42,047 nt of DNA from Escherichia coli. Its GTDB lineage: Bacteria > Pseudomonadota > Gammaproteobacteria > Enterobacterales > Enterobacteriaceae. Shown piece by piece: positions 1,232-41,327 of this stretch. Positions within the stretch are counted from its first letter, which is position 1, and each line of letters begins with the position of its first letter. The stretch lies in assembly GCF_051903065.1 (NCBI RefSeq), contig NZ_CP178441.1, one strand, 5' to 3'. The notes beneath the pieces are model-generated. The model saw nothing but the letters and a program-made list of their open reading frames with translations, searched no databases and had not been told where the DNA came from. Both the position numbers and the translations under genes were made by a program.

Positions 1232-1244
1232 TTTAGCTGCTAAA
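1232..1244. promoter_or_regulatory. KorB-type operator (OB) TTTAGCTGCTAAA
   Basis: 13-bp palindrome with the RK2 OB consensus arms TTTAGC/GCTAAA, just upstream of a -35 hexamer. Confidence 0.6.
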
Positions 1245-1245
1245 A

Positions 1246-1275
1246 TTGCAATTATAGGACAATATGTCCTATAAT
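1246..1275 (+). promoter_or_regulatory. Sigma70-like promoter TTGCAA-18-TATAAT overlapped by KorC-type operator TAGGACAATATGTCCTA (1255..1271)
   Basis: Hexamers and spacing read directly. The 17-bp perfect-arm palindrome covers the spacer and -10, as at RK2 kleA/klcA promoters. Confidence 0.6.
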
Positions 1276-1321
1276 ATGCGTAAAGGTTTGGTAAACCACT
1301 TGAATAAAGCAGGAGGCCGGT

Positions 1322-1645
1322 ATGACCAATGTCGTTAAATTTCCTCGTCAAGAGGGAAGTAAACCGCAGCAAATTCGGGCGGTCGAGGATGTCGCTGGTC
1401 CAGCATCAGAAAACACAGTACGTAATATTCTGTATGGTGTCATTGGTGCGGTATACATGGTGCTGGTTATTCTCTGGATTCCTGTTCGCTTCCTGCTGAT
1501 CGCGAACGTTGTCATCCAGTTTTTTAAAATGCTTTTTAAATGGAGTGATGGCCCATTTGCTGCAGCCTGGCCGTTCGTGACCAGTTTCCTTGTACTGGCT
1601 ACTCTCACTTACATTATGGCAACGTGGAAACCCAAAGTGTCATAG
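1322..1645 (+). CDS. small integral membrane protein (kle-position), function unknown
   Basis: AGGAGG RBS 6 nt upstream of ATG. Product has two long hydrophobic helices. Confidence 0.6.
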   Translation: MTNVVKFPRQEGSKPQQIRAVEDVAGPASENTVRNILYGVIGAVYMVLVILWIPVRFLLIANVVIQFFKMLFKWSDGPFAAAWPFVTSFLVLATLTYIMATWKPKVS

Positions 1646-1720
1646 ATAGAATGAATGCGTTGGCATTTCTGATTATATAATGTCAGTTAATTTCTAATTG
1701 TAAATTATAGAGGGTTTAAT

Positions 1721-1972
1721 ATGAGTATGGATCTATCTCATCTGGCCGAAATGACACCTTCTGATGAAGCACGATTTTTTACCGTTTTTGATAGACAACT
1801 TGGATATGATGCAGGTGAAGAAGCCCGTGCCAATCTTCTTAGTGGCGTACCTATTTATTACGCTGAACGAAATACACCAGAAGGGTGTGTTATAAAAGAA
1901 TATCCAGATGGCCGTAAGGAACTGGTGAGTTTCATGACTGGTACAGAAAAAGTAGTTGAGGTTAAGCTCTGA
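1721..1972 (+). CDS. hypothetical 83-aa protein, putative antitoxin partner of the downstream kinase
   Basis: Stop overlaps the start of the next gene (TGATG coupling). AT-rich leader upstream. Confidence 0.5.
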   Translation: MSMDLSHLAEMTPSDEARFFTVFDRQLGYDAGEEARANLLSGVPIYYAERNTPEGCVIKEYPDGRKELVSFMTGTEKVVEVKL

Positions 1973-2562
1973 TGCGTCCTCAACTCTGGGTTATTGCTGG
2001 GCCTAATGGTGCAGGAAAATCTACCCTAGTTAAGCGACATATCCTTGGGAAAATAGAGGTTGTTAACCCTGATGATATTGCGCGGGAACAAGGTATAAGC
2101 AATCGAAAGGCAGGAGAGCAGGCACTTTTTCTGCGCACGGAAAATATCAAAAATAGATGTACTTTCGCTGTAGAAACGACACTCACAGGAATGGGGGAGA
2201 TTAAGTTAATGCAGCTTGCTGCAACTGCAGGTTACAAAATTAATTTAATCTATGTGGGGGTGAAAGATGTAGGAATGTCAGTAGCTCGCGTTAACCAGCG
2301 TGTAAGCCTTGGTGGTCATAATGTGCCTGTTGATGATATTTTCAGACGATACGAGCGTTCTGTAACCAACCTACCTAAAGCTATGGCCGTGGCTGACCGG
2401 GTATGGGTATTTGATAACAGTTATAACAGACGGCGATTACTTTTCCGCACAGAACAAGATAAAACAAAGTTCATTTCTAATGATTTGCCTGATTGGTTTA
2501 AAAAAGTCGCTGGGACAGAGATTGAGCAGGCCAGAATGAAAAAGAAGAAATTAAGTCGTTAG
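1972..2562 (+). CDS. P-loop kinase of zeta-toxin/AAA_33 type (putative toxin)
   Basis: Walker A GPNGAGKST near the N-terminus, followed by a VVNPDD segment and an HNVP...RRYERS segment typical of zeta-like kinases. Translationally coupled to the upstream small ORF. Confidence 0.55.
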   Translation: MRPQLWVIAGPNGAGKSTLVKRHILGKIEVVNPDDIAREQGISNRKAGEQALFLRTENIKNRCTFAVETTLTGMGEIKLMQLAATAGYKINLIYVGVKDVGMSVARVNQRVSLGGHNVPVDDIFRRYERSVTNLPKAMAVADRVWVFDNSYNRRRLLFRTEQDKTKFISNDLPDWFKKVAGTEIEQARMKKKKLSR

Positions 2563-2579
2563 TTAAACGTCCAAGGATA

Positions 2580-2606
2580 AACCGGCTATAAGCCGGTTTT
2601 TTTTTG
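2580..2606 (+). terminator. rho-independent terminator (AACCGGCT-ATA-AGCCGGTT plus T-run)
   Basis: 8-bp perfect stem followed by nine T residues directly after the 1972..2562 stop. Confidence 0.7.
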
Positions 2607-2660: not shown

Positions 2661-2706
2661 TTTAGCAGCTAAAATTATTGACCTGCATACGTGGTTTAGC
2701 TAAACT
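2661..2706 (+). promoter_or_regulatory. korA-type promoter: OB (2661..2673), -35 TTGACC (2678..2683), KorA operator GTTTAGCTAAAC (2694..2705) overlapping -10 TAAACT
   Basis: Operator sequences and arrangement match the RK2 korA promoter (OA over the -10, OB just upstream of the -35). Confidence 0.7.
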
Positions 2707-2763: not shown

Positions 2764-3108
2764 ATGACGACTGTTAATAATAATGATCCGCATGTTGCCA
2801 AAACGGGCAATGAAAAAAAACGCCTGACTAATGAGGTATTTGCAAGAGTTACCCGAAGCCTGAATGTTGGTAAGCAAACGCTTGATATCGCTTACGGCGT
2901 ACTGGTTGAAGGAAGACCGCAGAAATATTTTGTTGAAACGCTGGATATTTCTCGCGGGGCTGTTTCTCAGGCAGTTAACAGAGTGTGGGATGCCTATAAA
3001 CAAGAAGTACCTGACGGTTTTGTGCGTATTGAAGTAGTGTTACCGGAGCGGCAGGCTTTCATTGTTAAAAAGTGGGCTGACGAGGCAAAACGTAAACAGG
3101 AAGAATAG
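2764..3108 (+). CDS. korA: KorA global repressor (ORF track start 2707 is probably an upstream extension)
   Basis: Strong similarity to recalled RP4 KorA: HTH segment GAVSQAVNRVW and C-terminal VLPERQAFIVKKWADEAKRKQEE. Confidence 0.8.
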   Translation: MTTVNNNDPHVAKTGNEKKRLTNEVFARVTRSLNVGKQTLDIAYGVLVEGRPQKYFVETLDISRGAVSQAVNRVWDAYKQEVPDGFVRIEVVLPERQAFIVKKWADEAKRKQEE

Positions 3109-3110: not shown

Positions 3111-3875
3111 ATGGCTATGAAAGTATTGGTTACAGCAAATCAAAAAGGTGGTGTTGGCAAGACTTCCACCCTGGTTCATCTGGCATTTGATTTTTCAGAA
3201 CGAGGCAAGCGGGTTGCTGTAATCGATATGGATACCCAGGGCAACGCCTCTTTTACCCTGAAACAGTTCTCGTCCGGCATTAAAGCGAATGAAATGTGGG
3301 GCGAGATCGAGCCAACTCGCTTTACCCAAATGCCTGAGAGCGGAATTTCTCTCATTGAGTCAGATATTCAACTAGCAAACGTAGAAAAATTAAATCTGCC
3401 GGAAATGGTGAAGCAGTTCCGCCATAACCTGCAGCAGCTGGCGGACAGTGGCTTTGACGTCTGCCTGATTGATACTGCGCCTACGGTTAACAATGCGCTT
3501 ATAGTTGCGCTGGCGAGCGCTGATTTTGTGGTATGCCCTATTGAGCTTGAGGTGTACTCAATTCAGGGTATTAAAAAAATGCTGACCACTTTCACCCAGG
3601 TGAAACGCAAAATGAACAGCAAGCTGGAATTTATTGGTATGGTTCCAAGTAAGGTAGATGGCCGCAATCCTCGCCATGTAAACCACCTGCAGGAGCTGCA
3701 GACGGCCTACCCTACGTTAATGGTTCCTGTGTCTGTCGGGTTGCGAAGCAGCATTGCTGATGCACTGGCTTCACATGTCCCTGTCTGGAAAATCAAGAAG
3801 ACAGCAGCACGTAAAGCCAGCCAGGAAATGAGAGCACTGGCCTGTCATGTTTTTACTAAGATGGAGATTGCATAA
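3111..3875 (+). CDS. incC: IncC / ParA-family partition ATPase
   Basis: Deviant Walker A KGGVGKTS and a ParA-like fold signature. Immediately precedes the ParB homolog, with stop/start overlap. Confidence 0.85.
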   Translation: MAMKVLVTANQKGGVGKTSTLVHLAFDFSERGKRVAVIDMDTQGNASFTLKQFSSGIKANEMWGEIEPTRFTQMPESGISLIESDIQLANVEKLNLPEMVKQFRHNLQQLADSGFDVCLIDTAPTVNNALIVALASADFVVCPIELEVYSIQGIKKMLTTFTQVKRKMNSKLEFIGMVPSKVDGRNPRHVNHLQELQTAYPTLMVPVSVGLRSSIADALASHVPVWKIKKTAARKASQEMRALACHVFTKMEIA

Positions 3876-4888
3876 TGACTAAAAAAAATTCTTCCGGCCT
3901 TGGCCTTGATACCGTTGGTGATCTCTCCGACTTTCTTGATGCGTCTGCAGGTGCTGAGGGTAAACCACTGATGCTGGACGTTGATGCGATTGATCCCGAT
4001 CCTGAACAACCGCGTAAGCAGGACAACCCAGGGTTCTCAGAGGAATCCATTAAGGAGCTGGCTGATACCATTAAAGCGCGTGGTGTGAAAATGCCTGTCT
4101 CCGTTCGCGAGAATCCGGAGCAAGCGGGGCGCTATATTATTAACCATGGAGAACGTCGCTGGCGAGCCAGTAAAGTGGCCGGGAAGAAACAAATTCCCGC
4201 TTTTATCGATAATGACTATAGCGACGATGATCAGGTCATTGAGAACATCCAGCGTAATGACCTGACGGCGCGTGAAATTGCCGTACACATTGGCCGCAAA
4301 CTGGCTGAGGGGGTATCAAAATCTCAGATTGCTAAACGGCTTGGCAAGTCGCCAGCGTTCGTAACCCAACACGCAGCGTTGCTGGACCTGCCGGATTGTA
4401 TAGCAGATGCTTTTAATAAAGGTTCAATCCGTGATGTTACCGTAGTTAATGAGCTGGTAACGGCTTACAAGCAAGACCCGGAAGAAGTTCAAAAACTGCT
4501 TGAAGAGAACGAGGGTGAAGACATTACCCGTAGTGCGGTGAAAGTTTTCCGTGAGTTCCTGGACGAAAAAGAATCCAGCAAGCGTGATCCAGACACCATT
4601 GACGCCTTCAATGGCCGTACCGATTCGGAAGCTGCCGAAGATGATACGGACGGCCACGATGATAACGATGTGACCGATAAGGTCCGTAAGACGCCAGAAA
4701 AGGAAACCGATCCTGATAAATTCAAAAAGGCTATTGTTATCGTTGAGTACCTGGGGGAGCAGGGCCGCCTTATCCTGACCAAGCGCCCAAGTGAAGAAGG
4801 GCTTGCCTGGATTAAGTTTGATTCAACTGGTGTAGAAGAAGAGCTAAATCTCGAAAACGTGAAAATAATTTGCCTTATTGAAGGATAA
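3875..4888 (+). CDS. korB: KorB / ParB-family DNA-binding partition and global regulator protein
   Basis: ParB box HGERRWRAS and HTH segment SKSQIAKRLGKSPAFVTQH. Eleven cognate 13-bp OB palindromes are present on the replicon. Confidence 0.85.
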   Translation: MTKKNSSGLGLDTVGDLSDFLDASAGAEGKPLMLDVDAIDPDPEQPRKQDNPGFSEESIKELADTIKARGVKMPVSVRENPEQAGRYIINHGERRWRASKVAGKKQIPAFIDNDYSDDDQVIENIQRNDLTAREIAVHIGRKLAEGVSKSQIAKRLGKSPAFVTQHAALLDLPDCIADAFNKGSIRDVTVVNELVTAYKQDPEEVQKLLEENEGEDITRSAVKVFREFLDEKESSKRDPDTIDAFNGRTDSEAAEDDTDGHDDNDVTDKVRKTPEKETDPDKFKKAIVIVEYLGEQGRLILTKRPSEEGLAWIKFDSTGVEEELNLENVKIICLIEG

Positions 4889-4958: not shown

Positions 4959-4971
4959 TTTAGCCGCTAAA
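4959..4971. promoter_or_regulatory. KorB-type operator TTTAGCCGCTAAA
   Basis: Perfect OB consensus. A degenerate KorA-like half site TGTAGCTAAACA lies at 4981..4992. Confidence 0.6.
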
Positions 4972-5086
4972 ATGTATAGATGTAGCTAAACAAAATTTAA
5001 CCTGAGGGCTATGTAGTTCCGTCAGGGCAGAGAATTCATGGTTCCTGGCGGCTATTTCCTAAAAACGCATCATTACCGGTGATGTT

Positions 5087-6652: not shown

Positions 6653-6679
6653 TTTAGCCGCTAAAACTTAGCGGCTAAT
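6653..6679. promoter_or_regulatory. tandem KorB-type operators: TTTAGCCGCTAAA (6653..6665) and degenerate CTTAGCGGCTAAT (6667..6679)
   Basis: Two adjacent copies of the OB palindrome immediately past the traM stop. Confidence 0.55.
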
Positions 6680-8396: not shown

Positions 8397-8519
8397 GAGC
8401 AGGATAACAGTTGTAAACCGCCCGGAAAACCTTGGTTTTCCGGTGTATGTGGCATAGTAACGCCGTTTTTTCGTTATATCCACAGTTTTACATCAAAAAA
8501 CACGACATTCCACTTTTCT

Positions 8520-9043: not shown

Positions 9044-9056
9044 TTTAGCTGCTAAA
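9044..9056. promoter_or_regulatory. KorB-type operator TTTAGCTGCTAAA between traJ and traI
   Basis: 13-bp palindrome two nucleotides after the traJ stop. Confidence 0.55.
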
Positions 9057-13816: not shown

Positions 13817-14346
13817 AAAAAATGACCCGCTATGCCGCCATTGGTGTTATTTCGGCTTCATTGATTGGTGCAGTTGTGTGTTGCTTTGGATATGCCGCCG
13901 GGTTACGCATCAATACCACGAAAAGTATCCCTGTTGGCTTGTACAAAATCAGCCAGAAAGCGCCAGAGAAGGGCGACTATGTAATTTTCTGCCCGCCTGA
14001 AAAGGCTATTTTCTCACTGGCACAGAAGCGTGGTTACATCGGCAGCGGCTTTTGTCCAGGGGGGTATGGCGAGATGATGAAGCGGATTTTAGCGGCTAAA
14101 GGTGATGAAGTTGCTTTTCGTGATGATGGTGTTTACGTCAACGGACAGTTATTGCCTTACAGCAAGCCGTTAAGTGTTGATCCGGGCGGGCGTAAACTGC
14201 CCGCCATTCGTGAAGTATACACGTTGGGTAAATCAGAACTGTTGCTGATGACTGACCGCAGCGCATCTTCATTTGACGGGAGATATTTCGGCGCGGTCAC
14301 AAAGTCACAGATTATTTCTACGATATTACCTGTAATGACCTGGTAA
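13813..14346 (+). CDS. traF: TraF pilin-maturation peptidase (signal peptidase-like)
   Basis: Signal peptide and S26-like motif SFDGRYFG. Synteny after traG. Confidence 0.75.
   Translation: MKKMTRYAAIGVISASLIGAVVCCFGYAAGLRINTTKSIPVGLYKISQKAPEKGDYVIFCPPEKAIFSLAQKRGYIGSGFCPGGYGEMMKRILAAKGDEVAFRDDGVYVNGQLLPYSKPLSVDPGGRKLPAIREVYTLGKSELLLMTDRSASSFDGRYFGAVTKSQIISTILPVMTW
14088..14100. promoter_or_regulatory. KorB-type operator TTTAGCGGCTAAA inside the traF coding sequence
   Basis: Perfect OB consensus located within the CDS (encodes RILAAKG). Confidence 0.55.
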
Positions 14347-17121: not shown

Positions 17122-19239
17122 ATGGCAGAAGCTAAAGCGAAAAAACCATTTTATGAGATTGTGGCTGAAAACCTGATAGCCCAGCTTAAAGAGGGGACTG
17201 CTCCATGGCAGAAACCATGGAACCCCGGCGCTCCTGGTGTCGCATTGCCTATGAACCCTACGACGGGTAAACGTTATAAAGGCATTAACGCTATTCACCT
17301 TATGGCGCAGGGTTATAGCGATCAACGTTGGATGACCTATAAGCAGGCGACGGCTGCAAATGCGCAGGTAAGGAGAGGCGAAAAAGGCACGCCGATCCAA
17401 TACTGGAAATTTACTGAGGAACGCATCAAACGCAACGATGATGGTAGCGTTGTGCTCGATAAAGACGATAAACCGGTAAAAGAAACTGTCCAACTGGAGC
17501 GACCGAAGGTATTTAACGCAGTTGTGTTTAATGCGGAGCAGATTGACGGTCTACCGCCGATGGCCGTTCGCCAAGATAAGAGCTGGAACAGTATTGAACG
17601 TGCTGAATCTATTCTCGAAGCCTCTGGCGCGAAAATCTCTCATGACCAGGTTGACCGGGCTTTTTACCGTATGTCTACAGACAGCATTCATTTGCCGCAG
17701 CAGGCTTCCTTTCCAAGTGCTGATCGTTACTATGCCACTGCACTTCATGAATTGAGCCACTGGACAGGTCACGCATCGCGTCTTGATCGTGACCTGTCTC
17801 ATCCTTTTGGAAGTGAAGGTTACGCCAGAGAAGAACTACGCGCAGAGATTGCCAGTATGATCATTGGCGATGAACTGGGGATAGGTCATGACCCTTCCCA
17901 GCATGTTGCCTATGTAAAATCTTGGATTAAAGCCTTACAGGATGATCCGCTGGAAATTTTCCGTGCAGCAGCTGATGCTGAAAAAATCCAGGGGTTCGTG
18001 TTGGGCCTTGAACAACAGAGAATACAGGAACAACCGGTAACTCTGGAAAGAGAGCAGCGCGAAAAAGAGCATAATGAGGTAATGGCTGAGGTACAGCGGC
18101 TGACTAACCCGCAGATTTTCGATGCGGAAACAGCTCAACTCTATCATTTCACATTCATGACACTGGAGCAGACAGCTGAGGAAGCTGGTTACGTTACCTA
18201 TTACAGCCGTGGCACTGGTGAGCTGGGCGAAGAAACTATTCGGGTTAATTACGAAGACAGTAATGGAAATACTATTCCTGTTCATACTGATGTGGTTGGG
18301 CGCGGAAAAGCATTGACATATATCGGTGATGAGCGTGTCCCCGGAACGGGATTTTCATCCGATAATGAATGGCAAAGCAATGCTCTTAAAACCGCTTTCG
18401 CCAGCATGGATAACAACCTAACTTTAGTCGCTAAAAAAGTTCATAGTCAGATTGAAAATATCAGTGGAGACCCGCGAGAGTTACCGCAGGATGTTAAGTT
18501 TCCTAAAAACTGGTGGCCTAATTCCAGTTTTCTGGCGTCGACCCCAAGTGTGGAGAACTCAAAAGCAGCTGCAGAGGCTGATATGACCACTAAAACTGAA
18601 ACGTCTATTACATCAGCGCAGCAGCGCCAGTATCGTGCAGAGAAATTTATTCTTTCGAATCTCGATAGTGGTCTTTCTAAGCACGTTCAGAATATGAACC
18701 GTCGCCAGCTTACGTTGTCACGAAACGTTCTCTATGATGCTCAAAATAGCAATCAGGATAGTGATTTTTGGCAGCGTAACAAGGAATTTCATTCTTCGTT
18801 CAGTCAAAACTGGAATGAGGCTCAGGACAAGATCAAGAGCGCATACCGTGAGATTGATTTTGCATTATCACTTCTACCAGAGCCGAAATATAACATTGTG
18901 GAAAATCCTGGTCAGAATGAGCATGTGAATATAATCATGCAGACCAACAGTGCAGTTAAGGCGCTGGCCGCTGTTAACGAAGGGGATAATCGTTCAATTT
19001 ATGACTCACGTCTCATCAATAACGGTAAGGTCGATCTGAATGACCTGCAGAACAATTTTTATCAAACACTTGAAGCAGAAAAAGCAGCCTTAAAGCAAGG
19101 TATTATCAAGCCTGATGATGAGATTAGCGTGCTCCCACCAAGAGAAGCACAGGAATGGTATCAAGACCGTGTTGAAGGCTTGACGTATAGGAAATTGAAA
19201 AACCAGTCGATACCATTGTCCACGCCTTATGCCACGTGA
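17122..19239 (+). CDS. ardC: ArdC-like antirestriction protein (N-terminal ssDNA-binding domain plus HExxH metalloprotease) with a roughly 400-aa C-terminal extension
   Basis: N-terminal ...APWQKPW... ArdC-type segment and HExxH motif ALHELSHWTGH. Total length 705 aa versus about 300 aa for canonical ArdC. Confidence 0.7.
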   Translation: MAEAKAKKPFYEIVAENLIAQLKEGTAPWQKPWNPGAPGVALPMNPTTGKRYKGINAIHLMAQGYSDQRWMTYKQATAANAQVRRGEKGTPIQYWKFTEERIKRNDDGSVVLDKDDKPVKETVQLERPKVFNAVVFNAEQIDGLPPMAVRQDKSWNSIERAESILEASGAKISHDQVDRAFYRMSTDSIHLPQQASFPSADRYYATALHELSHWTGHASRLDRDLSHPFGSEGYAREELRAEIASMIIGDELGIGHDPSQHVAYVKSWIKALQDDPLEIFRAAADAEKIQGFVLGLEQQRIQEQPVTLEREQREKEHNEVMAEVQRLTNPQIFDAETAQLYHFTFMTLEQTAEEAGYVTYYSRGTGELGEETIRVNYEDSNGNTIPVHTDVVGRGKALTYIGDERVPGTGFSSDNEWQSNALKTAFASMDNNLTLVAKKVHSQIENISGDPRELPQDVKFPKNWWPNSSFLASTPSVENSKAAAEADMTTKTETSITSAQQRQYRAEKFILSNLDSGLSKHVQNMNRRQLTLSRNVLYDAQNSNQDSDFWQRNKEFHSSFSQNWNEAQDKIKSAYREIDFALSLLPEPKYNIVENPGQNEHVNIIMQTNSAVKALAAVNEGDNRSIYDSRLINNGKVDLNDLQNNFYQTLEAEKAALKQGIIKPDDEISVLPPREAQEWYQDRVEGLTYRKLKNQSIPLSTPYAT

Positions 19240-19503: not shown

Positions 19504-21291
19504 TTGTGCATAGCACACTTTCGCCACTGGTTCATGGAGGACGCTGACAGCCCGGATGAACTGAAAAGCGCTCTGGATGCGCTTGGCCCAGAACCGGGAG
19601 ATAATGAGGCTGTTTTCCTTGGTGAAGATGGAGGGCGAATTCTTCCAGAATTCAGTCTGAACGTTACGCAGGAAAATACTCCAATCAATGTCCCCTACAA
19701 AGAACGCAATGAAGCTAAAGCGCTTGGGGCAAAATGGGATCGAACCGAACAGACCTGGTTTGTACCAAAAGGTGTATCTCTGGATAAATTTGCAAAATGG
19801 GTTGGTGGGCCAACTGCAGAAAACAATTCATCTGTCGTATCTGTGAAAGAAGTAACGCCAAAAGTGGGTGAGCGTCAGAATCTGGCTGTCCCTTATAAAG
19901 ACCGCGCAGAAGCTAAAGCAGCTGGTGCTAAATGGGACAAAGAGAAAAAAACTTGGTATGCCGAAGCTGGGGCAGATATGCAAAAACTGGCGAAGTGGAA
20001 ACCGGAAAATGTGGTGATCGAACAGTCACCGGCCATGACGCTAAAGGAGGAAGTAGAAACCGCGCTGAAAGATATTGGGTGCATCCTTGATGCCGATACT
20101 GACAAAGGACAGAAACATCCAATTATGGATGGTAAGAAGCATCGGATCACGGTAGAGGGAGACAAGAAAGGGGAAAAGTCAGGTTTTTATATCATCTATA
20201 CTGACGGCCATCCTGCGGGCTTCATGCAGAACAACCGCACCAAAGAAGAGTTACGTTGGTCTTCCAAGGGAAATGTGATGTCCGACGAAGAAAAAGCGCT
20301 CCTGCGGGCGCAGGCTGCTCAGAAACAGGCCGAAAAAGCGGCACAGCAGCAAAAAGACCATGAGTCCTCTGCAAAGCGTGTTCAAAAGCAGCTCGCTAAA
20401 CTCAATGAACCTCAGCAGCAAACTGCTTACCTGAAGAAGAAAGGGCTGCAGGTACATAAAGGTGTGTTCACTGATAAGGACGGACAGAAAACCTTTATTC
20501 CTGCTTATGATGTCCATGGTAAGCAATGGACTATGCAGTACATCAACGAGGACGGCACAAAACGTTTTGCCAAAAATGCTCGCAAAGAGGGATGTTTCCA
20601 TGTCATTGGCGGGCTGGATGCGCTTAAAAAATCTCCGGTGTTGATTGTGGCCGAAGGTTACGCAACGGCAGGGAGCATCACAGAGGCTACTAATATACCA
20701 ACGGTCGCCGCCTTCGATTCAGGTAATCTGGAATCTGTCGCGAAAACGCTTAAAGAAGCCTACCCCGATAAGCCAATCATCATTGCCGGTGATGATGATA
20801 TTTCTCAGTCATGCAAAATGAAGGTGAAGGATAAAGCCAGTGTAAACGTCGGCAGGGAAAAAGCGCTGGAAACAGCGAAAGCTGTCGGCGGTGTGGCTGT
20901 GTTTCCAGTTTTTGCTAAAGGTGAATTACCTGGGAAAGACGAACTCAGCCAGATTAAACCGGCGGCGTATCTTGCACACCAGACCGCCTCGCGCAAACTG
21001 GAGGCCCATACGAGCGGTGATAAGCCACTCTCGGATGCCGAAGTGAAGGTTCTGCAGGCAGCACAGCTATCGGAAAAGCAGCTTGATATTATTCGCCGCG
21101 CTGATCGTTACACTGACTTTAACGATCTGGCCGTAAATAGTTCTCTTGGCCGGGAAGGTGTGGCGATGCAGTTGAAAGCCGTCATTGCTGACCAGCTGAA
21201 TAAAAAACAGCAGCAGTCACAGGTCCAGATCGAAGAGAAGAAACTCGTTCAGGAAAAAGAGAAAAAACGGACCATTCGCCACGCTATGTAA
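19504..21291 (+). CDS. traC: TraC-like DNA primase (Toprim domain); start uncertain (alternative ATG at 19534)
   Basis: Toprim segment VLIVAEGYATAGS...IIIAGDDD. Two N-terminal repeats of the ...AK..GAKWD...K.W motif. Confidence 0.75.
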   Translation: MCIAHFRHWFMEDADSPDELKSALDALGPEPGDNEAVFLGEDGGRILPEFSLNVTQENTPINVPYKERNEAKALGAKWDRTEQTWFVPKGVSLDKFAKWVGGPTAENNSSVVSVKEVTPKVGERQNLAVPYKDRAEAKAAGAKWDKEKKTWYAEAGADMQKLAKWKPENVVIEQSPAMTLKEEVETALKDIGCILDADTDKGQKHPIMDGKKHRITVEGDKKGEKSGFYIIYTDGHPAGFMQNNRTKEELRWSSKGNVMSDEEKALLRAQAAQKQAEKAAQQQKDHESSAKRVQKQLAKLNEPQQQTAYLKKKGLQVHKGVFTDKDGQKTFIPAYDVHGKQWTMQYINEDGTKRFAKNARKEGCFHVIGGLDALKKSPVLIVAEGYATAGSITEATNIPTVAAFDSGNLESVAKTLKEAYPDKPIIIAGDDDISQSCKMKVKDKASVNVGREKALETAKAVGGVAVFPVFAKGELPGKDELSQIKPAAYLAHQTASRKLEAHTSGDKPLSDAEVKVLQAAQLSEKQLDIIRRADRYTDFNDLAVNSSLGREGVAMQLKAVIADQLNKKQQQSQVQIEEKKLVQEKEKKRTIRHAM

Positions 21292-22122: not shown

Positions 22123-22135
22123 TTTAGCGGCTAAA
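22123..22135. promoter_or_regulatory. KorB-type operator TTTAGCGGCTAAA
   Basis: Perfect OB consensus between convergent genes. Confidence 0.55.
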
Positions 22136-22146: not shown

Positions 22147-23133
22147 TTAATCATCATGGTCCAAAGGAGCTGAGTTTTTAATAGCTTCAATTTCATCAAG
22201 CAATCTTTTATTACGCTTTATTGCATCTTCAATGCGACGAATCAGCGCCTCATCACCTTTCCAGTAATTAAATTTACCTCTTTGACTTTTATCCCAAATA
22301 TCCTCCCACCACATGCTTTCATTTACACGATAATCCTTGAGAAGCATCAGTGGATAGGCTTGTTCCTCTTCTCTGATTTGCTTATAAGCAGATCGCGGCA
22401 TAAGGTAGCCTTTGACGTTTACATCAAGTTTGACAAAACTCTTGTACAGCGCCCGAAGAGTGACAAAAAAATCAGCCAAATCAGACTCGCCACCGGCTCC
22501 AATGACTTCACTTACGTGTAGGTTTGTCCAGAACGCATCAACATACCGTGTATTTTCAAACTCACGGAGTATCAGAAGTGCTCCTATATCACTATCTTCC
22601 CTTAGCAGCCTGATGTCTGTGACTTTATTACCATCACTATCAGGTCTGAGAAGGTGCTTAACAGCAGCCCGGCCTGTGCCGTGCATTCTGACGCCTGAGT
22701 TCCATTCATACACATCCCCCTCACCGTGAATTAACCAGTCGGCGCGACAACCAAATAACTTGCTTAACCGCTGCAGCTCAGTGAAGGAAGGGAGTACGTC
22801 ACCACTGAACCAGTTGGCGACAAGGCCAAGATCTTCAATCCCCAGCTCTACGGCCACATTGGACGGCACAAGAGGTTTGTAGTTACGGAATTGGTTGGTT
22901 TTCCGCAGAACTGTATTGAGGCGGCCAGACACTTCCTGCCGGTATAGTTCTTCTCCAGAATAAACCTGCTCAGGAGGTGCTATCCATTTCAACAGAGCAT
23001 AGCGGGCCTCACCTTCGACCGAACGTTGATTTTCGTTTGCTAACTGTTCTAGGGCGAAATATGCATCGTCCGGGAAATTTCTGACCTGAAATTTTTTCAT
23101 AACGCACCATTTTGGGAGAATGTGTGGCTTCAT
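22147..23133 (-). CDS. RHH (Arc/CopG-like) plus XRE-HTH-like protein with a large unknown C-terminal domain; start may be the internal ATG at 23100
   Basis: N-terminus KKFQVRNFPDDAYFALEQLANENQRSVEGEARYAL is RHH-like. A mid segment ...LQRLSKLFGCRADWLIHGEG is HTH-like. Downstream of a KorC-operator promoter region. Confidence 0.55.
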   Translation of the reverse strand: MKPHILPKWCVMKKFQVRNFPDDAYFALEQLANENQRSVEGEARYALLKWIAPPEQVYSGEELYRQEVSGRLNTVLRKTNQFRNYKPLVPSNVAVELGIEDLGLVANWFSGDVLPSFTELQRLSKLFGCRADWLIHGEGDVYEWNSGVRMHGTGRAAVKHLLRPDSDGNKVTDIRLLREDSDIGALLILREFENTRYVDAFWTNLHVSEVIGAGGESDLADFFVTLRALYKSFVKLDVNVKGYLMPRSAYKQIREEEQAYPLMLLKDYRVNESMWWEDIWDKSQRGKFNYWKGDEALIRRIEDAIKRNKRLLDEIEAIKNSAPLDHDD

Positions 23134-23207: not shown

Positions 23208-23414
23208 TTAAAAACCAATAAGTCTGCATTCATGGCTGACCATTTGGCTCAGGTAACGTGGTATCTGCTCGACCAAGTGGATGTTCGTCTCAGCGAGTTT
23301 TTCAATCTCATCAATGGTAACGGTTGGCAGAGCATGGATGAAATCTGACAGGGAAAGATGCTCCAGTGGCCGTCTGTCATATGATGCTGTTTTGCTATAG
23401 GATATACGGGACAT
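23208..23414 (-). CDS. small hypothetical protein (68 aa), first gene downstream of the KorC operators
   Basis: AAGGAA RBS upstream of the ATG. Confidence 0.5.
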   Translation of the reverse strand: MSRISYSKTASYDRRPLEHLSLSDFIHALPTVTIDEIEKLAETNIHLVEQIPRYLSQMVSHECRLIGF

Positions 23415-23481: not shown

Positions 23482-23524
23482 TAGGACATTATGTCCTGCA
23501 CCTATGATAGGACATTTTGTCCTA
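23482..23524. promoter_or_regulatory. two KorC-type operators (TAGGACATTATGTCCTG at 23482..23498; TAGGACATTTTGTCCTA at 23508..23524) in a divergent promoter region
   Basis: Same 17-bp palindrome family as at 1255..1271 and 41307..41323. Confidence 0.6.
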
Positions 23525-23567
23525 TTTGCAAGTGATTTTCAAACCGTCTAAGGATTGGGAGTGCGCC

Positions 23568-23898: not shown

Positions 23899-23911
23899 TT
23901 TAGCGGCTAAA
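23899..23911. promoter_or_regulatory. KorB-type operator TTTAGCGGCTAAA
   Basis: Perfect OB consensus 9 nt after the 23693..23890 stop. Confidence 0.55.
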
Positions 23912-29646: not shown

Positions 29647-30417
29647 TTACCAAGATTGAGCGGGGCTTTTGGTATAAGTCCCTGCCCTAAAAGTTTCTGA
29701 TGCAGCCGCTTGCTGGGCCTCTTTATCGGCCTGAGCCTGCGCCAGTGTAGTTGCAGCGTTTTGCTGGGCAACTAGAAGCGAGCGGATTTGCAGTAACTGG
29801 TTTGTTTGCGCACTGGCAAGCTGGTTAGCGGCCTGAATAGCTTCCATTTGCCCCTGTGCTCCAGTTACTTGAGTTTGTAAGTCAGCAAGGTTATCTGCAT
29901 CTCTTTGCAGTGTTTCTTGCTGTTCATCGAGAACCTTAAAAACGGCGTCATTGGCCTTTTTACGAGCCTCAGAGTTATTTTGTTCAGCTTTACGTAGTGC
30001 GCTAATTTCATCTGCAGTGCATTCAACATTACTGTTAAAGCATGGCGATGAACGGTAGTAATTAATGTCCTGATAACGTTTTAGATATGAGTCAAGACTC
30101 CCGGCCTGATTTTTGTAGTAATTAAGAGTGTCCTGTGCCTGCAATAATTTGTTGATAGTTGAATTGGCCTGATCCCATATATAGGCCGCAGGTGCGACTG
30201 TGTTTCTCAGCATGTTTTCATATTGTTGCAACTGCGTCTGATACTGTTGGATCTGTTTAGCCACAGCCTGAACGTTATTGACAGCGCTGATTGTGGTCTG
30301 CACCACATTAGTAGCATCAAAAACAGGAATACCAGCTTTCGCAGGTAGGGCCATGATTGACGCCACGAAGGAAGCTAGTAACGCTTTTTTAGCGGCTAAA
30401 ACGAAACGTGTATTCAT
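29647..30417 (-). CDS. trbJ: TrbJ / VirB5-like protein
   Basis: Signal peptide and a Q/A-rich coiled-coil body. Synteny. Confidence 0.7.
   Translation of the reverse strand: MNTRFVLAAKKALLASFVASIMALPAKAGIPVFDATNVVQTTISAVNNVQAVAKQIQQYQTQLQQYENMLRNTVAPAAYIWDQANSTINKLLQAQDTLNYYKNQAGSLDSYLKRYQDINYYRSSPCFNSNVECTADEISALRKAEQNNSEARKKANDAVFKVLDEQQETLQRDADNLADLQTQVTGAQGQMEAIQAANQLASAQTNQLLQIRSLLVAQQNAATTLAQAQADKEAQQAAASETFRAGTYTKSPAQSW
30388..30400. promoter_or_regulatory. KorB-type operator TTTAGCGGCTAAA inside the 5' end of trbJ
   Basis: Perfect OB consensus 15-29 nt downstream of the trbJ start codon. Confidence 0.55.
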
Positions 30418-38206: not shown

Positions 38207-38341
38207 AATTCATCCTTTATTTTTACTGCGTTTATAATAGGAATTACGACAAACGATATAACGAAACAAGTTTTCAGGCAATAGTTAAGCAAGCATTAAA
38301 GTGAAATTATTGGTAGTTCGAAGACGGGAAAGGGGATGTTT

Positions 38342-38354
38342 TTTAGCGGCTAAA
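38342..38354. promoter_or_regulatory. KorB-type operator TTTAGCGGCTAAA in the trbB promoter region
   Basis: Perfect OB consensus between trbA and trbB, as in RK2. Confidence 0.6.
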
Positions 38355-38818: not shown

Positions 38819-38863
38819 TTTAGCGGCTAAAATATTGACCGAATTAAATTGTTTAGCTAAACT
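38819..38863 (+). promoter_or_regulatory. ssb-trfA promoter region: OB (38819..38831), -35 TTGACC (38835..38840), KorA operator GTTTAGCTAAAC (38851..38862) overlapping -10 TAAACT
   Basis: Same operator/hexamer geometry as the korA promoter at 2661..2706. Corresponds to the RK2 trfA promoter, divergent from trbA. Confidence 0.7.
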
Positions 38864-39272: not shown

Positions 39273-39295
39273 TGGGGCAAGATGGTATAGAATGG

Positions 39296-39318
39296 AAGGC
39301 CCGATGAGGGCCTTTTCT
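39296..39318 (+). terminator. hairpin/attenuator between ssb and trfA (AAGGCCC-GATGA-GGGCCTT then TTCT)
   Basis: 7-bp stem with a short T-rich tail. Confidence 0.4.
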
Positions 39319-39346
39319 CAATGCGCTTCAAAGCGGTGAGGCACTT

Positions 39347-40225
39347 ATGAAGAATGACAATAATAATTCTGAACTTGAAAAGCTAAAAAAGGCAGCGCTT
39401 GATCAGCGCTCCAGAATGGCGAATGAAGGGCAGACAGAGAAGCAACTGACGCTATTTGACATTGCACCATGGCCGGATTCGATGCGGGCATTACCTAACG
39501 ATTATGCTCGTTCTGCTCTGTTTACTGTCAAGAATAAACGTCAGCCCCGTGAAGCACTGCAGAAGAAAGAGATTTTCCACATTAATAAAGATGTGCGGAT
39601 CACCTATACCGGGCTTGAGTTACGTGCTGATGACGATGAACTTGTGTGGCAGCAGGTTCTTGAATACGCCAAAAGGAAACCAATGGGTGAACCTATTACC
39701 TTCACGTTTTACGAACTTTGCCAGGATCTAGGCTGGTCTTATAATGGTCGTTATATAGAAAAGGCCGAGGAGTGCCTAACACGCCTACAGGCAACAGCCA
39801 TGCAATTTATTTCTGAGCGTGTCGGTCAACTGGAGTCTGTTTCATTGATTGGTCGCTTTCGCGTTCTTGACCGTGGGAAACGGTCGTCAAGATGTGAAGT
39901 CATCATTGATAAAGAGATGGTTTTGCTTTTTGCAGGTGAGCACTATTCAAAGTTTGTGTGGGAGAAATACCGTAAACTTTCACCTACAGCTCGCCGCCTC
40001 TTTGATTACTTTGGTTCTCACCGGGAGCCATATCCTATGAAATTAGATACATTCAAGATGATGTGTGGCTCGGAATCCGACCGCCTGAAAAAGTGGCGAG
40101 AGCAGGTTAATAAAGCATGTGCTGAGCTTAAAGATAGTGGGTTAATTCATAGTGCTTGGATAGATAAAGATCGTATTCATTGCAAACGAACTAACGATGC
40201 CGCAGCGAGGAATGGTGACACTTGA
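39347..40225 (+). CDS. trfA: TrfA replication initiator (iteron-binding Rep)
   Basis: Very close to recalled RK2 TrfA (LFDIAPWPD, ITFTFYELCQDLGW, KYRKLSPTARR). Cognate iterons follow immediately. Confidence 0.9.
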   Translation: MKNDNNNSELEKLKKAALDQRSRMANEGQTEKQLTLFDIAPWPDSMRALPNDYARSALFTVKNKRQPREALQKKEIFHINKDVRITYTGLELRADDDELVWQQVLEYAKRKPMGEPITFTFYELCQDLGWSYNGRYIEKAEECLTRLQATAMQFISERVGQLESVSLIGRFRVLDRGKRSSRCEVIIDKEMVLLFAGEHYSKFVWEKYRKLSPTARRLFDYFGSHREPYPMKLDTFKMMCGSESDRLKKWREQVNKACAELKDSGLIHSAWIDKDRIHCKRTNDAAARNGDT

Positions 40226-40540
40226 GGGGCACATATTTTTTTTATGACAGTTGAGGGGCGCTTTATTGCGCCCTTCTTTGTTTAGGACGAGTTTAGCCCG
40301 CACGAAATTTTGTTTAGGCGTATAGAGCTTAACCAGACGTTAGAATTATCCCCTTAATTTGTGGATAAGTCTGTTAATATCCCGGTAAAGATACGACATT
40401 TAAGGGGCGGAAAGGTGACACTTGAGGGGCGCTATTATGACATATGAAGGGCGCTATCATGATATTTGAGGGGCGGAAAGGTGACACTTGAGGGGCGCTA
40501 TTATGACATATGAAGGGCACTATCATGACATTTGAGGGGC
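40216..40540 (+). repeat. oriV iterons: nine copies of TGACA-N-TTGAGGGGC-like 15-17-mers (two at 40216..40259; seven at exact 22-bp spacing from 40394 to 40540)
   Basis: Repeat sequence matches the RK2 iteron consensus. 22-bp periodicity read directly. The first iteron overlaps the trfA stop codon. Confidence 0.85.
40360..40368 (-). promoter_or_regulatory. DnaA box (TTATCCACA on the minus strand); a second near-consensus box at 40544..40552
   Basis: Exact 9-mer consensus read between the two iteron groups. Confidence 0.55.
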
Positions 40541-40680
40541 GCTTGTGGATATGATTTTCCATGTTTTTCATATTGATACAGTTGTTTTCCACAACCCTCT
40601 AACCAGATCTTAACCGATCTTTTAACCGATCTTTTAACCATTTCTAACCAAAAGAAATAACCTGTTATTTTAACCGGCGT
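40541..40680. other. oriV A+T-rich region with tandem AACCGATCTTTT-like repeats (candidate DNA unwinding element)
   Basis: Approximately 12-13-bp direct repeats between 40601 and 40672, immediately after the iterons. Confidence 0.5.
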
Positions 40681-40800
40681 CATAGACGCCCCCGAAGGGG
40701 GGAAACCCCCCTTCTCAATCCCACCCGGCCGCAAGCGGCCTCCCATCCCCCCAGGGGCAAGCCCCTCGACCGCAAGCGGTCTTCACCCCAAATTTTTCTC
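40681..40800. other. oriV G+C-rich segment with G/C runs and two copies of CCGCAAGCGG
   Basis: Read directly. RK2 oriV has an analogous G+C-rich block after the A+T-rich region. Confidence 0.45.
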
Positions 40801-41298
40801 ACTCGCTTCGCGAGCTTAGGCCGCTTCGCTCTGCCAGAGATAAATCTCTGGCCAACCACACCAACCAACGTGCAAAACATTCAATTCTTAAAAATTCCTC
40901 ACCAAAACAGCTTGATAAGTACTCGCTTGAATTACCAAGCACACTTCGAAATTCCGTATTCGCTATAAACTCGAAAAGTTTTACACCAAGGAAAAGCCGT
41001 TTAAGGGGTTCCAAGCCGGAAACGGGGTTTGAGGGCCAACCGTACGAAAACGTACGGTAAGGGGGCCGCTTGGCATTCGGAAAATAAACCACGTTAAGAC
41101 TATTTTTTAGCCAAAAGACTTTTAGAAATCGCCAGAATGGCGGGACAACAGCAGTTTTGGTGTCCGAAATCGTACAATTTTTACGTTCAGTAAGTTAGCT
41201 GGCCTGGATGTAACCATCCGTTCAACTCAATTCTCTTGGCGTGGGAAAATTTCCGAATTCCAAGCTGATCCCTGCTACGGCTCCATCAATAATAATGC

Positions 41299-41327
41299 TT
41301 GAACAATAGGACAAAATGTCCTATTAT
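41299..41327 (+). promoter_or_regulatory. klcA promoter TTGAAC-17-TATTAT overlapped by KorC-type operator TAGGACAAAATGTCCTA (41307..41323)
   Basis: Hexamers plus a perfect-arm 17-bp palindrome. Same geometry as the promoter at 1246..1275. Confidence 0.6.

What the first reader, a model, noticed from the sequence alone, without database searches (positions are those of the whole stretch)
1232..41323. Complete three-tier Kor operator network readable from sequence (11 KorB, 2 KorA, 4 KorC sites)
The 13-bp TTTAGC-N-GCTAAA palindrome occurs 11 times. Four copies have a central T/A rather than the G/C of the RK2 consensus. GTTTAGCTAAAC overlaps the -10 hexamer at exactly two promoters (korA and ssb-trfA), with identical spacing to a -35 TTGACC and an OB just upstream. 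A 17-bp palindrome TAGGACA-N3-TGTCCTA occurs four times, overlapping the -10 hexamer at the two promoters where hexamers could be read (1246..1275, 41299..41327). This allows regulon prediction, including for the accessory locus.
Basis: partly seen in the sequence, partly recalled or inferred. Interest (0 to 1): 0.5.

Follow-up and report, generated by a model that had tools for sequence, protein, structure and literature searches.

The report
IncP-1 plasmid Kor repressor operator network

Summary
The motifs are real and far above chance. There are 11 exact TTTAGC-N-GCTAAA sites, 2 GTTTAGCTAAAC sites, and 3 exact plus 1 one-mismatch TAGGACA-N3-TGTCCTA sites; shuffles give about 0. The window is a whole circular plasmid, 100% identical to pCFSA664-2-type IncP/P-1 "clade II" plasmids. 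It encodes KorA, IncC, KorB, KorC and TrbA, 55-65% identical to those of R751.

The operator sequences equal those of R751 and sit at the same places: korAp, trfAp, kle and klcA promoters, trbA-trbB, traJ-traI, and inside traF and trbJ. The flanks have diverged to background.

Corrections:
- Only 3 KorB sites, not 4, have a central A/T.
- The network has four tiers, not three. TrbA-type sites lie at the trbB, traG and traK promoters.
- It is not complete as listed. A 12th KorB site in traC has one mismatch, and a degenerate KorA site follows the KorB site downstream of korB.
- The "accessory" KorC promoter fires on the minus strand into orf68-orf328. It is conserved in pDS1 with that plasmid's own operator variant.

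Verdict: a new member of a known system, of low to moderate interest.

The parts
991..1224 (+). korC (KorC repressor gene; last gene of the klcA-klcB-korC operon)
   Evidence: 56% identical to R751 KorC and 98% to the protein annotated KorC in L003.
2764..3108 (+). korA (KorA repressor)
   Evidence: Matches RK2 KorA/TrfB structures 2w7n and 8qa9 at E = 1e-29. Recognition helix RGAVSQAV.RVW is conserved. The position of Y84 is F, so the aromatic is kept. 59% identical to R751 KorA.
3111..3875 (+). incC (ParA partner of KorB; short form only)
   Evidence: 55% identical to R751 IncC. No upstream in-frame extension appears in the ORF list.
3875..4888 (+). korB (ParB-family CTPase clamp, repressor and partition protein)
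   Evidence: Matches RK2 KorB structures 8qa8 and 1r71 at E = 1e-91. The GERRWR box is present, and the residues aligned to T211, R240 and F249 are conserved. NCBIfam parB_part scores 182 bits.
   Evidence: NCBIfam TrbA equivalog scores 188.6 bits against a cut-off of 96. 65% identical to R751 TrbA. The KorA-like C-terminal motif with the invariant aromatic (QQAF) is present.
1232..1244 (.). OB, central T; 1 nt upstream of the -35 hexamer of the kleE promoter
   Evidence: Orthologous OB in R751 (6444), pDS1 (35447) and L003 (18157).
1246..1275 (+). kleE promoter, TTGCAA-18-TATAAT; drives kleE, orf83 and a zeta-toxin-like ATPase gene
1255..1271 (.). OC (KorC operator) filling the kleE promoter spacer and the first 2 nt of the -10 hexamer
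   Evidence: Same position as OC in R751, and as the TAGGTCT variant in pDS1.
2661..2673 (.). OB, central A; 4 nt upstream of the -35 hexamer of korAp
2678..2706 (+). korA promoter, TTGACC-17-TAAACT
2694..2705 (.). OA (KorA operator) overlapping the -10 hexamer of korAp
   Evidence: Identical in R751 (4757), pDS1 (34447) and L003 (19590).
4959..4971 (.). OB downstream of korB (position of the kfrA-type promoter)
   Evidence: The arrangement of OB followed by an OA-like site is conserved in R751, pDS1 and L003.
4980..4991 (.). Degenerate OA-like site ATGTAGCTAAAC (10 of 12 bases)
   Evidence: In L003 and pDS1 the adjacent -10 hexamer is TATAAT; here it has decayed to TATAGA and the downstream ORF is broken.
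6653..6665 (.). OB between the convergent kfrC and traM genes (no promoter nearby; candidate centromere or loading site)
6667..6679 (.). Second, degenerate OB (CTTAGCGGCTAAT) abutting the site at 6653
   Evidence: Also present in L003.
8470..8480 (+). OT-like site (TTCGTTATATC) in the oriT / traK-traJ divergent promoter region
   Evidence: The same motif lies at the same distance from traK in pDS1 and L003.
9044..9056 (.). OB, central T, in the traJ-traI intergenic gap
   Evidence: In RP4 the OB at this position (OB4) represses traGp (PMC7314908).
11471..11500 (+). Putative traG promoter, TTCGAT-18-TATAAT, with an OT-like site (TTCGATATACC) over the -35 hexamer
   Evidence: The same motif lies upstream of traG in R751 (49020), pDS1 (26085) and L003 (29473).
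14088..14100 (.). OB inside traF
   Evidence: Conserved inside traF of R751, pDS1 and L003.
18423..18435 (.). One-mismatch OB (TTTAGTCGCTAAA) inside traC
   Evidence: Exact at the same position in pDS1 and L003; one mismatch in R751.
22123..22135 (.). OB next to the bidirectional terminator between hha-like and orf328
23208..23414 (-). orf68, first gene of the third KorC-controlled transcription unit
   Evidence: 65-69% identical homologues lie behind OC promoters in pDS1 and L003.
22147..23133 (-). orf328, a DNA-binding protein (RHH + cI/XRE-type HTH + uncharacterised C-terminal domain) downstream of orf68
23504..23531 (-). orf68 promoter, TTGCAA-16-TATCAT, on the minus strand
   Evidence: pDS1 has TTGCAA-16-TACTAT.
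23508..23524 (.). OC over the spacer and -10 hexamer of the orf68 promoter
23482..23498 (.). Second OC (one mismatch) over the predicted transcription start and early leader
   Evidence: Identical in L003.
23899..23911 (.). OB in the accessory region, after orf65
   Evidence: The L003 equivalent is at 44749.
30388..30400 (.). OB inside the 5' end of trbJ
   Evidence: Conserved in R751, pDS1 and L003.
38255..38265 (-). OT-like site (TTCGTTATATC) about 49 nt upstream of trbB
   Evidence: R751 has CGATATATCG at the equivalent place.
38342..38354 (.). OB in the trbA-trbB gap, 77 nt upstream of the OT-like site
38819..38831 (.). OB 3 nt upstream of the -35 hexamer of the ssb-trfA promoter (divergent from trbA)
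38835..38863 (+). ssb-trfA promoter, TTGACC-17-TAAACT
38851..38862 (.). OA overlapping the -10 hexamer of the trfA promoter
41299..41327 (+). klcA promoter, TTGAAC-17-TATTAT; drives klcA-klcB-korC, so KorC regulates itself
41307..41323 (.). OC in the klcA promoter

Best explanation
The window is an entire 42,047-bp circular IncP/P-1 'clade II' plasmid of the pCFSA664-2 type. The palindromes are the operators of its IncP-1-type global repression circuit.

KorB is a ParB-family CTPase. It loads at the 13-bp OB sites: 11 exact, plus a one-mismatch copy in traC.
- At three promoters (korAp, trfAp, kleEp) OB abuts the -35 hexamer.
- At the others KorB would reach the promoter by sliding as a CTP-closed clamp. 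It is then locked in place by KorA bound at OA over the -10 hexamer (korAp, trfAp), or by TrbA bound at OT-like sites (trbBp, traGp, traKp).

KorC binds the 17-bp OC sites, which fill the spacer and -10 hexamer of three promoters. These are klcAp (its own operon), kleEp, and a minus-strand promoter for orf68-orf328 that carries two tandem OC sites.

Shown here: the sites, their non-random placement, the presence and conservation of the repressors, and the orthology of site positions. Inferred from RK2/RP4 experiments: binding, clamp sliding and repression in this plasmid.
For: Motif counts versus shuffles.

Identity of the plasmid:
- 100% identical to CP057780.1 and NZ_CP033354.2 (pCFSA664-2).
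- pCFSA664-2 is listed in the unidentified-subgroup clade, and pMCR_1511-type plasmids are described as clade II (PMC9499019).
- klcB wraps across the window ends.

Repressors:
- KorA, IncC, KorB, KorC and TrbA are 55-65% identical to those of R751.
- KorB and KorA match the RK2 crystal structures, with the DNA-contact and KorA/KorB-interface positions kept.

Operators:
- The R751 operators I scanned are the same sequences: OB, OA and TAGGACAAAATGTCCTA.
- Sites are 92-100% conserved at ten orthologous positions, while ungapped flanks fall to 23-40% identity against R751. This includes the sites inside traF and trbJ.
- pDS1 carries TAGGTCT-N3-AGACCTA at the same three promoters. This is a symmetric change, and it coincides with a T-to-Q change in the KorC helix.
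- 9 of 11 OB sites lie in the 11% non-coding DNA, P = 1.2e-7.

Mechanism in RK2:
- PMC11790492 for the KorB clamp and the KorA lock.
- bioRxiv 10.64898/2026.05.27.728120 for the TrbA lock.
- PMC7314908 for 7 OA and 12 OB sites, OB4 in the traJ-traI gap, and TrbA at the tra promoters.
Against: - No binding or expression data exist for this plasmid or its clade in the material I could search.
- Promoter hexamers were read by consensus only, and promoter-like sites are no more frequent than in shuffles.
- The OT motif (TTCGWTATAYC) was derived partly from the sites it then finds, so its statistic in the window is circular. Only its recurrence at traGp and traKp of R751, pDS1 and L003 is semi-independent.
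- The KorA regulon is much smaller here (2 strong sites) than the 7 reported for RP4. klcAp lacks the OB and OA present in R751. The circuit is therefore not a simple copy.
- Whether A/T-centred OB sites bind KorB equally well is untested.
Confidence: 0.9

Rival explanations
1. Most OB sites are mainly centromere-like (parS-type) loading sites for IncC/KorB plasmid partition, or transcription roadblocks at operon ends, rather than promoter operators. This applies to the sites inside traF, trbJ and traC and those at convergent gene ends (6653, 22123, 23899).
For: - KorB is a ParB-family protein encoded next to a ParA (IncC).
- Five or six sites have no readable promoter within about 100 nt.
- Three sit at convergent gene ends or beside terminators.
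- From my own knowledge of RK2 (Williams et al. 1998, not checked here), one OB (OB3) suffices for partition.
Against: - This is not exclusive with the operator role.
- In RK2, distal OB sites repress promoters up to 1.5 kb away through clamp sliding (PMC11790492).
- In RP4 the traJ-traI OB represses traGp (PMC7314908).
- Three OB sites abut -35 hexamers.
Confidence: 0.35
2. The third KorC-controlled unit and the two OB sites around it (22123-23911) are a recently acquired accessory cassette. It happens to carry look-alike palindromes and is not integrated into the Kor circuit.
For: - orf328 and the neighbouring genes are absent from R751. Homologues of orf328 occur on more than 1000 unrelated Klebsiella and E. 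coli plasmids.
- Gene content in this region varies among relatives.
Against: - The promoter, both OC sites and orf68 are conserved in L003.
- pDS1 has the same promoter and orf68 with its own OC variant (TAGGTCTAAAAGACCTA). The operator therefore tracks the resident KorC.
- Chance expectation for OC is about 0 to 0.1.
Confidence: 0.07
3. The palindromes are chance or compositional repeats with no function.
For: None beyond the general caveat that consensus matches alone do not prove function.
Against: - 0 of 100 shuffles reach the observed counts.
- Sites are strongly enriched in intergenic DNA.
- Sites are perfectly conserved at orthologous positions against diverged flanks.
Confidence: 0.01

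Closest known systems
R751 (IncP-1 beta) global regulatory network: KorA, KorB, KorC, TrbA
   Same: - Same operator sequences: TTTAGC(G/C)GCTAAA, GTTTAGCTAAAC and TAGGACA-N3-TGTCCTA.
- Same OB to -35 to OA layout at korAp and trfAp; the OB-to-OA offset is 33 nt in R751 against 33 and 32 nt here.
- OB at the korC-kle gap, downstream of korB, in the trbA-trbB gap, inside traF and inside trbJ.
- OC fills the spacer of klcAp and the kle promoter.
   Different: - The proteins are only 55-65% identical, and G+C is about 45%.
- Here klcAp has OC only; R751 has OB, OA-like and OC.
- The kle promoter has OB directly at the -35 hexamer and no OA-like site.
- kfrA, kleA and kleB are absent.
- There is a third OC-controlled promoter (orf68).
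- Three OB sites have an A/T centre.
- Only the short forms of TrfA and IncC are encoded.
RK2/RP4 (IncP-1 alpha) KorB clamp with KorA/TrbA lock
   Same: - KorB keeps the CTP-binding box and the residues aligned to T211, R240 and F249.
- KorA and TrbA keep the aromatic at the Y84 and F104 positions.
- OA overlaps the -10 hexamer.
- OB lies in the traJ-traI gap, as OB4 does in RP4.
   Different: - RP4 has 7 OA and 12 OB sites (PMC7314908). This plasmid has 2 strong OA sites (plus 1 degenerate) and 11 exact OB sites (plus 1 near-exact).
- From memory, and not verified here, the RK2 KorC operator is TAGGGCATAATGCCCTA, a third arm variant.
- No experiments exist for this clade.
pDS1 (IncP-1 eta) and mcr-1 IncP plasmids (pMCR_1511 / pHKSHmcr1_P2_p1 type), IncP/P-1 clade II
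   Same: - Same backbone order.
- 11-13 OB sites at the same positions, and A/T-centred OB sites also occur in pDS1.
- An orf68 promoter under KorC control.
- OT-like sites at traGp and traKp.
   Different: - pDS1 uses TAGGTCT-N3-AGACCTA as its KorC operator, and its trfAp OA has one mismatch.
- L003 and pDS1 keep an exact OB in traC and one after trbN, both degenerate here.
- L003 has an extra OB/OA pair near 23668-23693.
RA3 (IncU) KorA/KorB/KorC stability-module regulators
   Same: Same protein names and the same general logic of global repressors with palindromic operators (papers listed).
   Different: Not compared here. It is a different plasmid family, and I did not test its operator sequences.

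Membership tests
IncP-1 (RK2/R751-type) global Kor regulon | A korA-incC-korB central control operon encoding homologues of KorA, IncC (ParA) and KorB (ParB) | tested here: met
   59%, 55% and 58% identical to the R751 proteins. Matches RK2 KorB and KorA crystal structures at E = 1e-91 and 1e-29.
IncP-1 (RK2/R751-type) global Kor regulon | KorB keeps its CTP-binding box, the DNA-contact residues (T211, R240) and the aromatic F249 that docks KorA/TrbA | tested here: met
   Alignment to 8qa8 and 1r71: GERRWR, RDVTVVNEL, ITRSAV and FREFLDEK. The residue numbering was derived by me from my recollection that the 1r71 chain starts at residue 117. F249 is named; T211 and R240 are from memory of Khare et al. 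2004.
IncP-1 (RK2/R751-type) global Kor regulon | Multiple 13-bp OB palindromes TTTAGC-N-GCTAAA, at promoters and at distal positions | tested here: met
   11 exact and 1 one-mismatch site. Positions are orthologous to those in R751, pDS1 and L003.
IncP-1 (RK2/R751-type) global Kor regulon | OA GTTTAGCTAAAC overlapping the -10 hexamer of korAp and trfAp, with OB just upstream of the -35 hexamer | tested here: met
IncP-1 (RK2/R751-type) global Kor regulon | KorC, and 17-bp OC palindromes at the klcA and kle promoters | tested here: met
   KorC is 56% identical to that of R751. OC lies at klcAp and kleEp in the same register as in R751.
IncP-1 (RK2/R751-type) global Kor regulon | TrbA, and its operators at the trbB, traG and traJ/traK promoters | tested here: inconclusive
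   The TrbA protein is clearly present. OT-like motifs lie at the three expected places and recur in R751, pDS1 and L003. However, the motif was defined post hoc and I could not retrieve the published OT consensus.
IncP-1 (RK2/R751-type) global Kor regulon | Repressors bind the sites and repress the promoters | not testable with these tools
   Needs EMSA, ChIP-seq or reporter fusions.
IncP/P-1 plasmid group, clade II (Hayakawa et al. 2022) | trfA-ssb replicon with TGACA..TGAGGGGC iterons, short TrfA2 only, and a backbone matching the reference members | tested here: met
   - TrfA is 70% identical to the C-terminal part of R751 TrfA and is 292 aa long.
- There are 9 iterons at 22-bp spacing.
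- The window is 100% identical to pCFSA664-2, CP033354.
- That plasmid is listed in the unidentified-subgroup clade together with pMCR_1511, and those plasmids are called clade II in PMC9499019.

The most novel reading that the evidence does not exclude
In the Enterobacteriaceae-restricted clade II of IncP-1 the circuit has been rewired rather than merely inherited.
- KorA control has shrunk to the two core promoters.
- KorC has gained a third, double-operator promoter. It drives a conserved 68-aa protein and, in this lineage, a cI-like RHH-HTH DNA-binding protein that is widespread on Klebsiella plasmids. That protein could be a fifth regulatory tier or a link to co-resident plasmids.
- The KorC operator and its recognition helix have co-varied between subgroups (ACA with Thr, TCT with Gln).
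- The deep conservation of OB sites inside traF, trbJ and traC across 40% protein divergence would be natural evidence that 'promoter-less' OB sites are selected as clamp-loading sites.
Probability: 0.3. Interest if true: 0.45.

Novelty: new member of a known kind. Interest (0 to 1): 0.25.

Why it matters
Plasmids of this clade carry mcr-1, blaKPC, blaIMP and CMY genes in Enterobacteriaceae. No paper in the searched library describes their regulatory map. An operator map gives a testable regulon for replication, partition, transfer and establishment genes.

The comparison with R751 and pDS1 also provides natural variants that could be used with the recent KorB sliding-clamp model:
- A/T-centred OB sites.
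- A co-varying KorC/OC pair.
- Loss of OA at most promoters.

The system itself is textbook, so this adds a member and some variation, not a new principle.

Tried and rejected
- RK2 (BN000925) and pHS102707 (KF701335) are not in the plasmid collection. R751 and pDS1 were used instead.
- The pMCR_1511 paper (PMC5278755) is not held.
- An exhaustive list of repeated perfect palindromes (arms of 6-8 nt, gaps of 0-6 nt) found only OB, OA and OC plus trivial cases. No further perfect-palindrome operator family exists.
- The other OA-like two-mismatch hit (26566) and the two-mismatch OB-like hit at 29149 were rejected as chance. Expected chance matches at that stringency are about 2-3.
- PADLOC and NCBIfam gave nothing for the accessory ORFs apart from an Hha homologue.
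- Structure prediction of orf328 gave only generic cI/XRE HTH matches. The C-terminal domain remains uncharacterised.
- I could not assign confident -35 and -10 hexamers to trbBp or to the promoter at OB 4959.
- Literature searches for the operator sequences and for clade II regulation found no description of this clade's operators.

Full report

Yes, with small errors.

KorB sites (OB):
- TTTAGCNGCTAAA occurs exactly 11 times, at the coordinates implied by the finding. The mean in 100 dinucleotide-preserving shuffles is 0.01.
- Only three sites have a central A/T (1232 T, 2661 A, 9044 T).

KorA sites (OA):
- GTTTAGCTAAAC occurs twice, at 2694 and 38851, and never in shuffles.
- Both promoters read TTGACC-17 nt-TAAACT, with OA in the same register.
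- The upstream OB is 4 nt from the -35 hexamer at one promoter and 3 nt at the other.

KorC sites (OC):
- TAGGACANNNTGTCCTA is exact three times (1255, 23508, 41307).
- The fourth copy, at 23482, ends in G, one mismatch.
OC mostly fills the spacer and touches only two bases of the -10 hexamer.

Placement: 88.8% of the plasmid is coding, yet 9 of 11 OB sites and every OA and OC site are intergenic (P = 1.2e-7 for OB).

**2. What is the sequence?**

- The window is a whole circular plasmid. klcB starts at 41892 and continues at 1..963.
- It is 100% identical, apart from one insertion, to E. coli pRHB15-C18_3 (CP057780.1) and to Salmonella pCFSA664-2 (NZ_CP033354.2).
- Hayakawa et al. 2022 (PMC9499019) list pCFSA664-2 with pMCR_1511, pEN3600 and pHS102707 in an unidentified-subgroup clade. 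They describe those plasmids as IncP/P-1 'clade II': low in G+C, restricted to Enterobacteriaceae, and encoding only TrfA2.
- That paper lists korA, korB, korC and trbA among 28 conserved genes but never uses the word 'operator'.
- G+C is about 45%.
- oriV carries nine TGACAYWTGAGGGGC iterons at 22-bp spacing.

**3. Are the repressors there?**

- KorA, IncC, KorB, KorC and TrbA are 59, 55, 58, 56 and 65% identical to the R751 proteins.
- KorB aligns to the RK2 KorB crystal structures 8qa8 and 1r71 at E = 1e-91. It keeps the GERRxR box and the residues I align to T211, R240 and F249.
- KorA aligns to 2w7n and 8qa9 at E = 1e-29. Its recognition helix is conserved, and an aromatic (F) sits at the Y84 position.
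- TrbA passes the NCBIfam equivalog cut-off, 188.6 against 96 bits. It keeps the aromatic in the KorA-like C-terminal motif.
- F249, Y84 and F104 are the interface residues reported for RK2.

**4. Are the sites operators?**

I scanned R751 directly. It uses the same three sequences, including TAGGACAAAATGTCCTA for KorC.

I then compared the window with R751, pDS1 (IncP-1 eta) and an mcr-1 IncP plasmid (L003, about 90% identical). OB sites occupy the same ten positions:
- korAp and trfAp
- the korC-kle gap
- downstream of korB
- the kfrC/traM junction
- the traJ-traI gap
- the trbA-trbB gap
- inside traF, inside the 5' end of trbJ, and inside traC

The sites themselves are 92-100% identical. 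Ungapped flanks fall to 23-40% identity against R751. This is a clear phylogenetic footprint, and it includes sites embedded in coding sequence.

At klcAp and the kle promoter, OC sits in the same register in all four plasmids. In pDS1 it reads TAGGTCT-N3-AGACCTA, a change mirrored on both arms. The pDS1 KorC helix reads SRQVRRW, against SRTVRRW in the window and DRTIRRW in R751. I infer co-variation of protein and site; this is not tested.

**5.

(a) A fourth tier.
- IncP-1 plasmids have four global repressors, and TrbA is encoded here.
- R751 has CGATATATCG in its trbA-trbB gap. The window has CGTTATATCG at the matching place, 77 nt downstream of OB 38342 and about 49 nt upstream of trbB.
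- A motif built from these, TTCGWTATAYC, hits three places in the window: that site, 11471 and 8470. At 11471 it forms the -35 hexamer of a TTCGAT-18-TATAAT promoter 400 nt upstream of traG. The site at 8470 is in the oriT / traK-traJ region.
- The same motif lies upstream of traG in R751, pDS1 and L003, and upstream of traK in pDS1 and L003.
- These are the promoters where TrbA acts in RP4. Because the motif was defined after the fact, I rate the individual sites as probable, not proven.

(b) Near-consensus sites at conserved positions.
- TTTAGTCGCTAAA inside traC (18423) is exact in pDS1 and L003.
- CTTAGCGGCTAAT (6667) abuts OB 6653.
- A two-mismatch remnant after trbN (26783) is exact in pDS1 and L003.
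- ATGTAGCTAAAC (4980) lies 8 nt after OB 4959, an OB-plus-OA pairing also seen in R751, pDS1 and L003.
- In L003 and pDS1 that last promoter has a TATAAT box and a short ORF. In the window the box is TATAGA and the ORF is broken, so the unit looks decayed.

(c) The accessory locus.
- The two OC sites at 23482 and 23508 belong to a minus-strand promoter, TTGCAA-16-TATCAT (23531..23504).
- One OC covers the spacer and -10 hexamer. The other covers the predicted start site.
- The unit encodes orf68 (23414..23208) and orf328 (23133..22147). It ends at a bidirectional terminator beside OB 22123.
- L003 keeps the promoter and both OC sites.
- pDS1 has the same promoter and an orf68 homologue, with its own OC variant. 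This is therefore a conserved KorC target of clade II, not a chance resemblance in a cassette.
- R751 has no orf68 homologue in the 50 kb I held.

**6. Predicted regulon (inference)**

- KorA plus KorB: korA-incC-korB and ssb-trfA. Possibly also the decayed promoter after korB.
- KorC: klcA-klcB-korC (self-regulation) and orf68-orf328.
- KorC with KorB at the -35 hexamer: kleE, orf83 and the zeta-like ATPase gene.
- TrbA plus KorB: trbB onwards, traG onwards, and traK/traJ.
- No promoter is readable near the OB sites in traF, trbJ and traC, or near those at 6653, 22123 and 23899.

**7. Mechanism**

I carry the mechanism over from RK2.
- KorB binds OB and closes as a CTP-dependent clamp. It slides for up to about 1.5 kb and is latched at promoters by KorA bound at OA, which excludes RNA polymerase (PMC11790492).
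- TrbA is reported to use the same interface.
- The conservation of the interface residues here makes the same mechanism likely, but it has not been shown for this plasmid.
- The partition role of KorB/IncC is a parallel function of the same sites, not an alternative to repression.

**8. Differences from R751 and RP4**

- Two strong OA sites, against 7 reported for RP4.
- klcAp has OC only, whereas R751 has OB, an OA-like site and OC.
- The kle promoter has OB 1 nt from the -35 hexamer and no OA-like site.
- A third KorC-controlled promoter exists.
- A/T-centred OB sites occur here and in pDS1 but not in L003, so the central base appears free to vary.
- Only the short forms of TrfA and IncC are encoded.

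**9. Verdict**

The finding is a correct recognition of a textbook system in a clade where, in the library I could search, it has not been written up. It is a new member of a known kind. Interest is low to moderate. The useful residue is the comparative variation and the conserved orf68 promoter.

Noticed in passing
window 19184-19530: A 347-bp insertion relative to CP057780.1 splits the traC primase gene into two ORFs (17122..19239 and 19504..21291). The insert matches IS91-family transposase regions on about 2900 plasmids, so it is an IS91-family remnant. It also explains the thousands of hits in the first similarity search.
   Followed up: partly
window 5000-5250; L003 21928-22233: kfrA is absent between korB and kfrB. 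The gap holds broken reading frames that look, by eye, like a VbhA/FicA-type antitoxin and the N-terminus of a Fic protein. Examples are ...SLRLEGMD... and MSDKKDPYLYPGTDTLINNAGIRD in L003, and ...STDILINLAGMRD in the window. This suggests a decayed fic toxin-antitoxin pair once driven by the OB/OA-like promoter. No family search was run on these frames.
   Followed up: partly
window 23446-23471 (minus-strand leader of orf68); L004 16474-16502: A 10-bp-stem hairpin (GATAGGGAGG-N6-CCTCCCTATC) lies in the orf68 5' leader. pDS1 has a different sequence that still pairs (GTGGTGAGG-N6-CCTCACCAC) at the same place. This suggests a conserved RNA or DNA structure of unknown role.
   Followed up: partly
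window 41331-41379; also R751 klcA and kleA leaders and the L003 kleB leader: The leader between OC and the start codon (GAAGGCCGGGTA...CAGGTCAA.TACCGGAGAA.TCCGATG) is almost invariant from R751 to this plasmid, despite about 40% protein divergence. It is predicted to form two hairpins, the second pairing the GGAG Shine-Dalgarno sequence. There is too little variation to test covariation.
   Followed up: partly
window 21875-22090 and 21387-21878: An Hha/YmoA-family nucleoid-associated modulator gene (NCBIfam E = 4e-18) follows a KfrB-domain ORF after traC. It ends at a strong bidirectional terminator (22091-22115).
   Followed up: no
window 1721-2562: Downstream of kleE, and so predicted to be under KorB/KorC control, are an 83-aa ORF (phrog_21003) and a 196-aa P-loop protein annotated 'zeta toxin family'. 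This may be an epsilon/zeta-like addiction pair inside the Kor regulon.
   Followed up: no
window 8559-8659: Rfam traJ-II RNA (RF01760, 97 bits) lies in the traJ leader / oriT region.
   Followed up: no
window 2636-2650; L003 19531-19541: Just upstream of the korAp OB, L003 has an exact OT-like TTCGTTATATC. The same TTTTTTCGTTATATCC run also occurs at traKp. The window has a degenerate TTTCTTTATATCG and pDS1 has TTCGTTATAAAC. This may be TrbA input at korAp, or only a terminator tail.
   Followed up: no
window 25112-25127: The palindrome TTAGGGTATACCTTAA lies in the divergent gap between orf294/315 (which has an RHH motif) and the orf121-resolvase-HTH operon. It is a candidate local operator outside the Kor network.
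   Followed up: no
window 40209-40540: The oriV iterons are TGACAYWTGAGGGGC: seven in a 22-bp-spaced array, plus two upstream that overlap the end of trfA. AT-rich repeats and G+C-rich repeats follow (40605-40782).
   Followed up: partly
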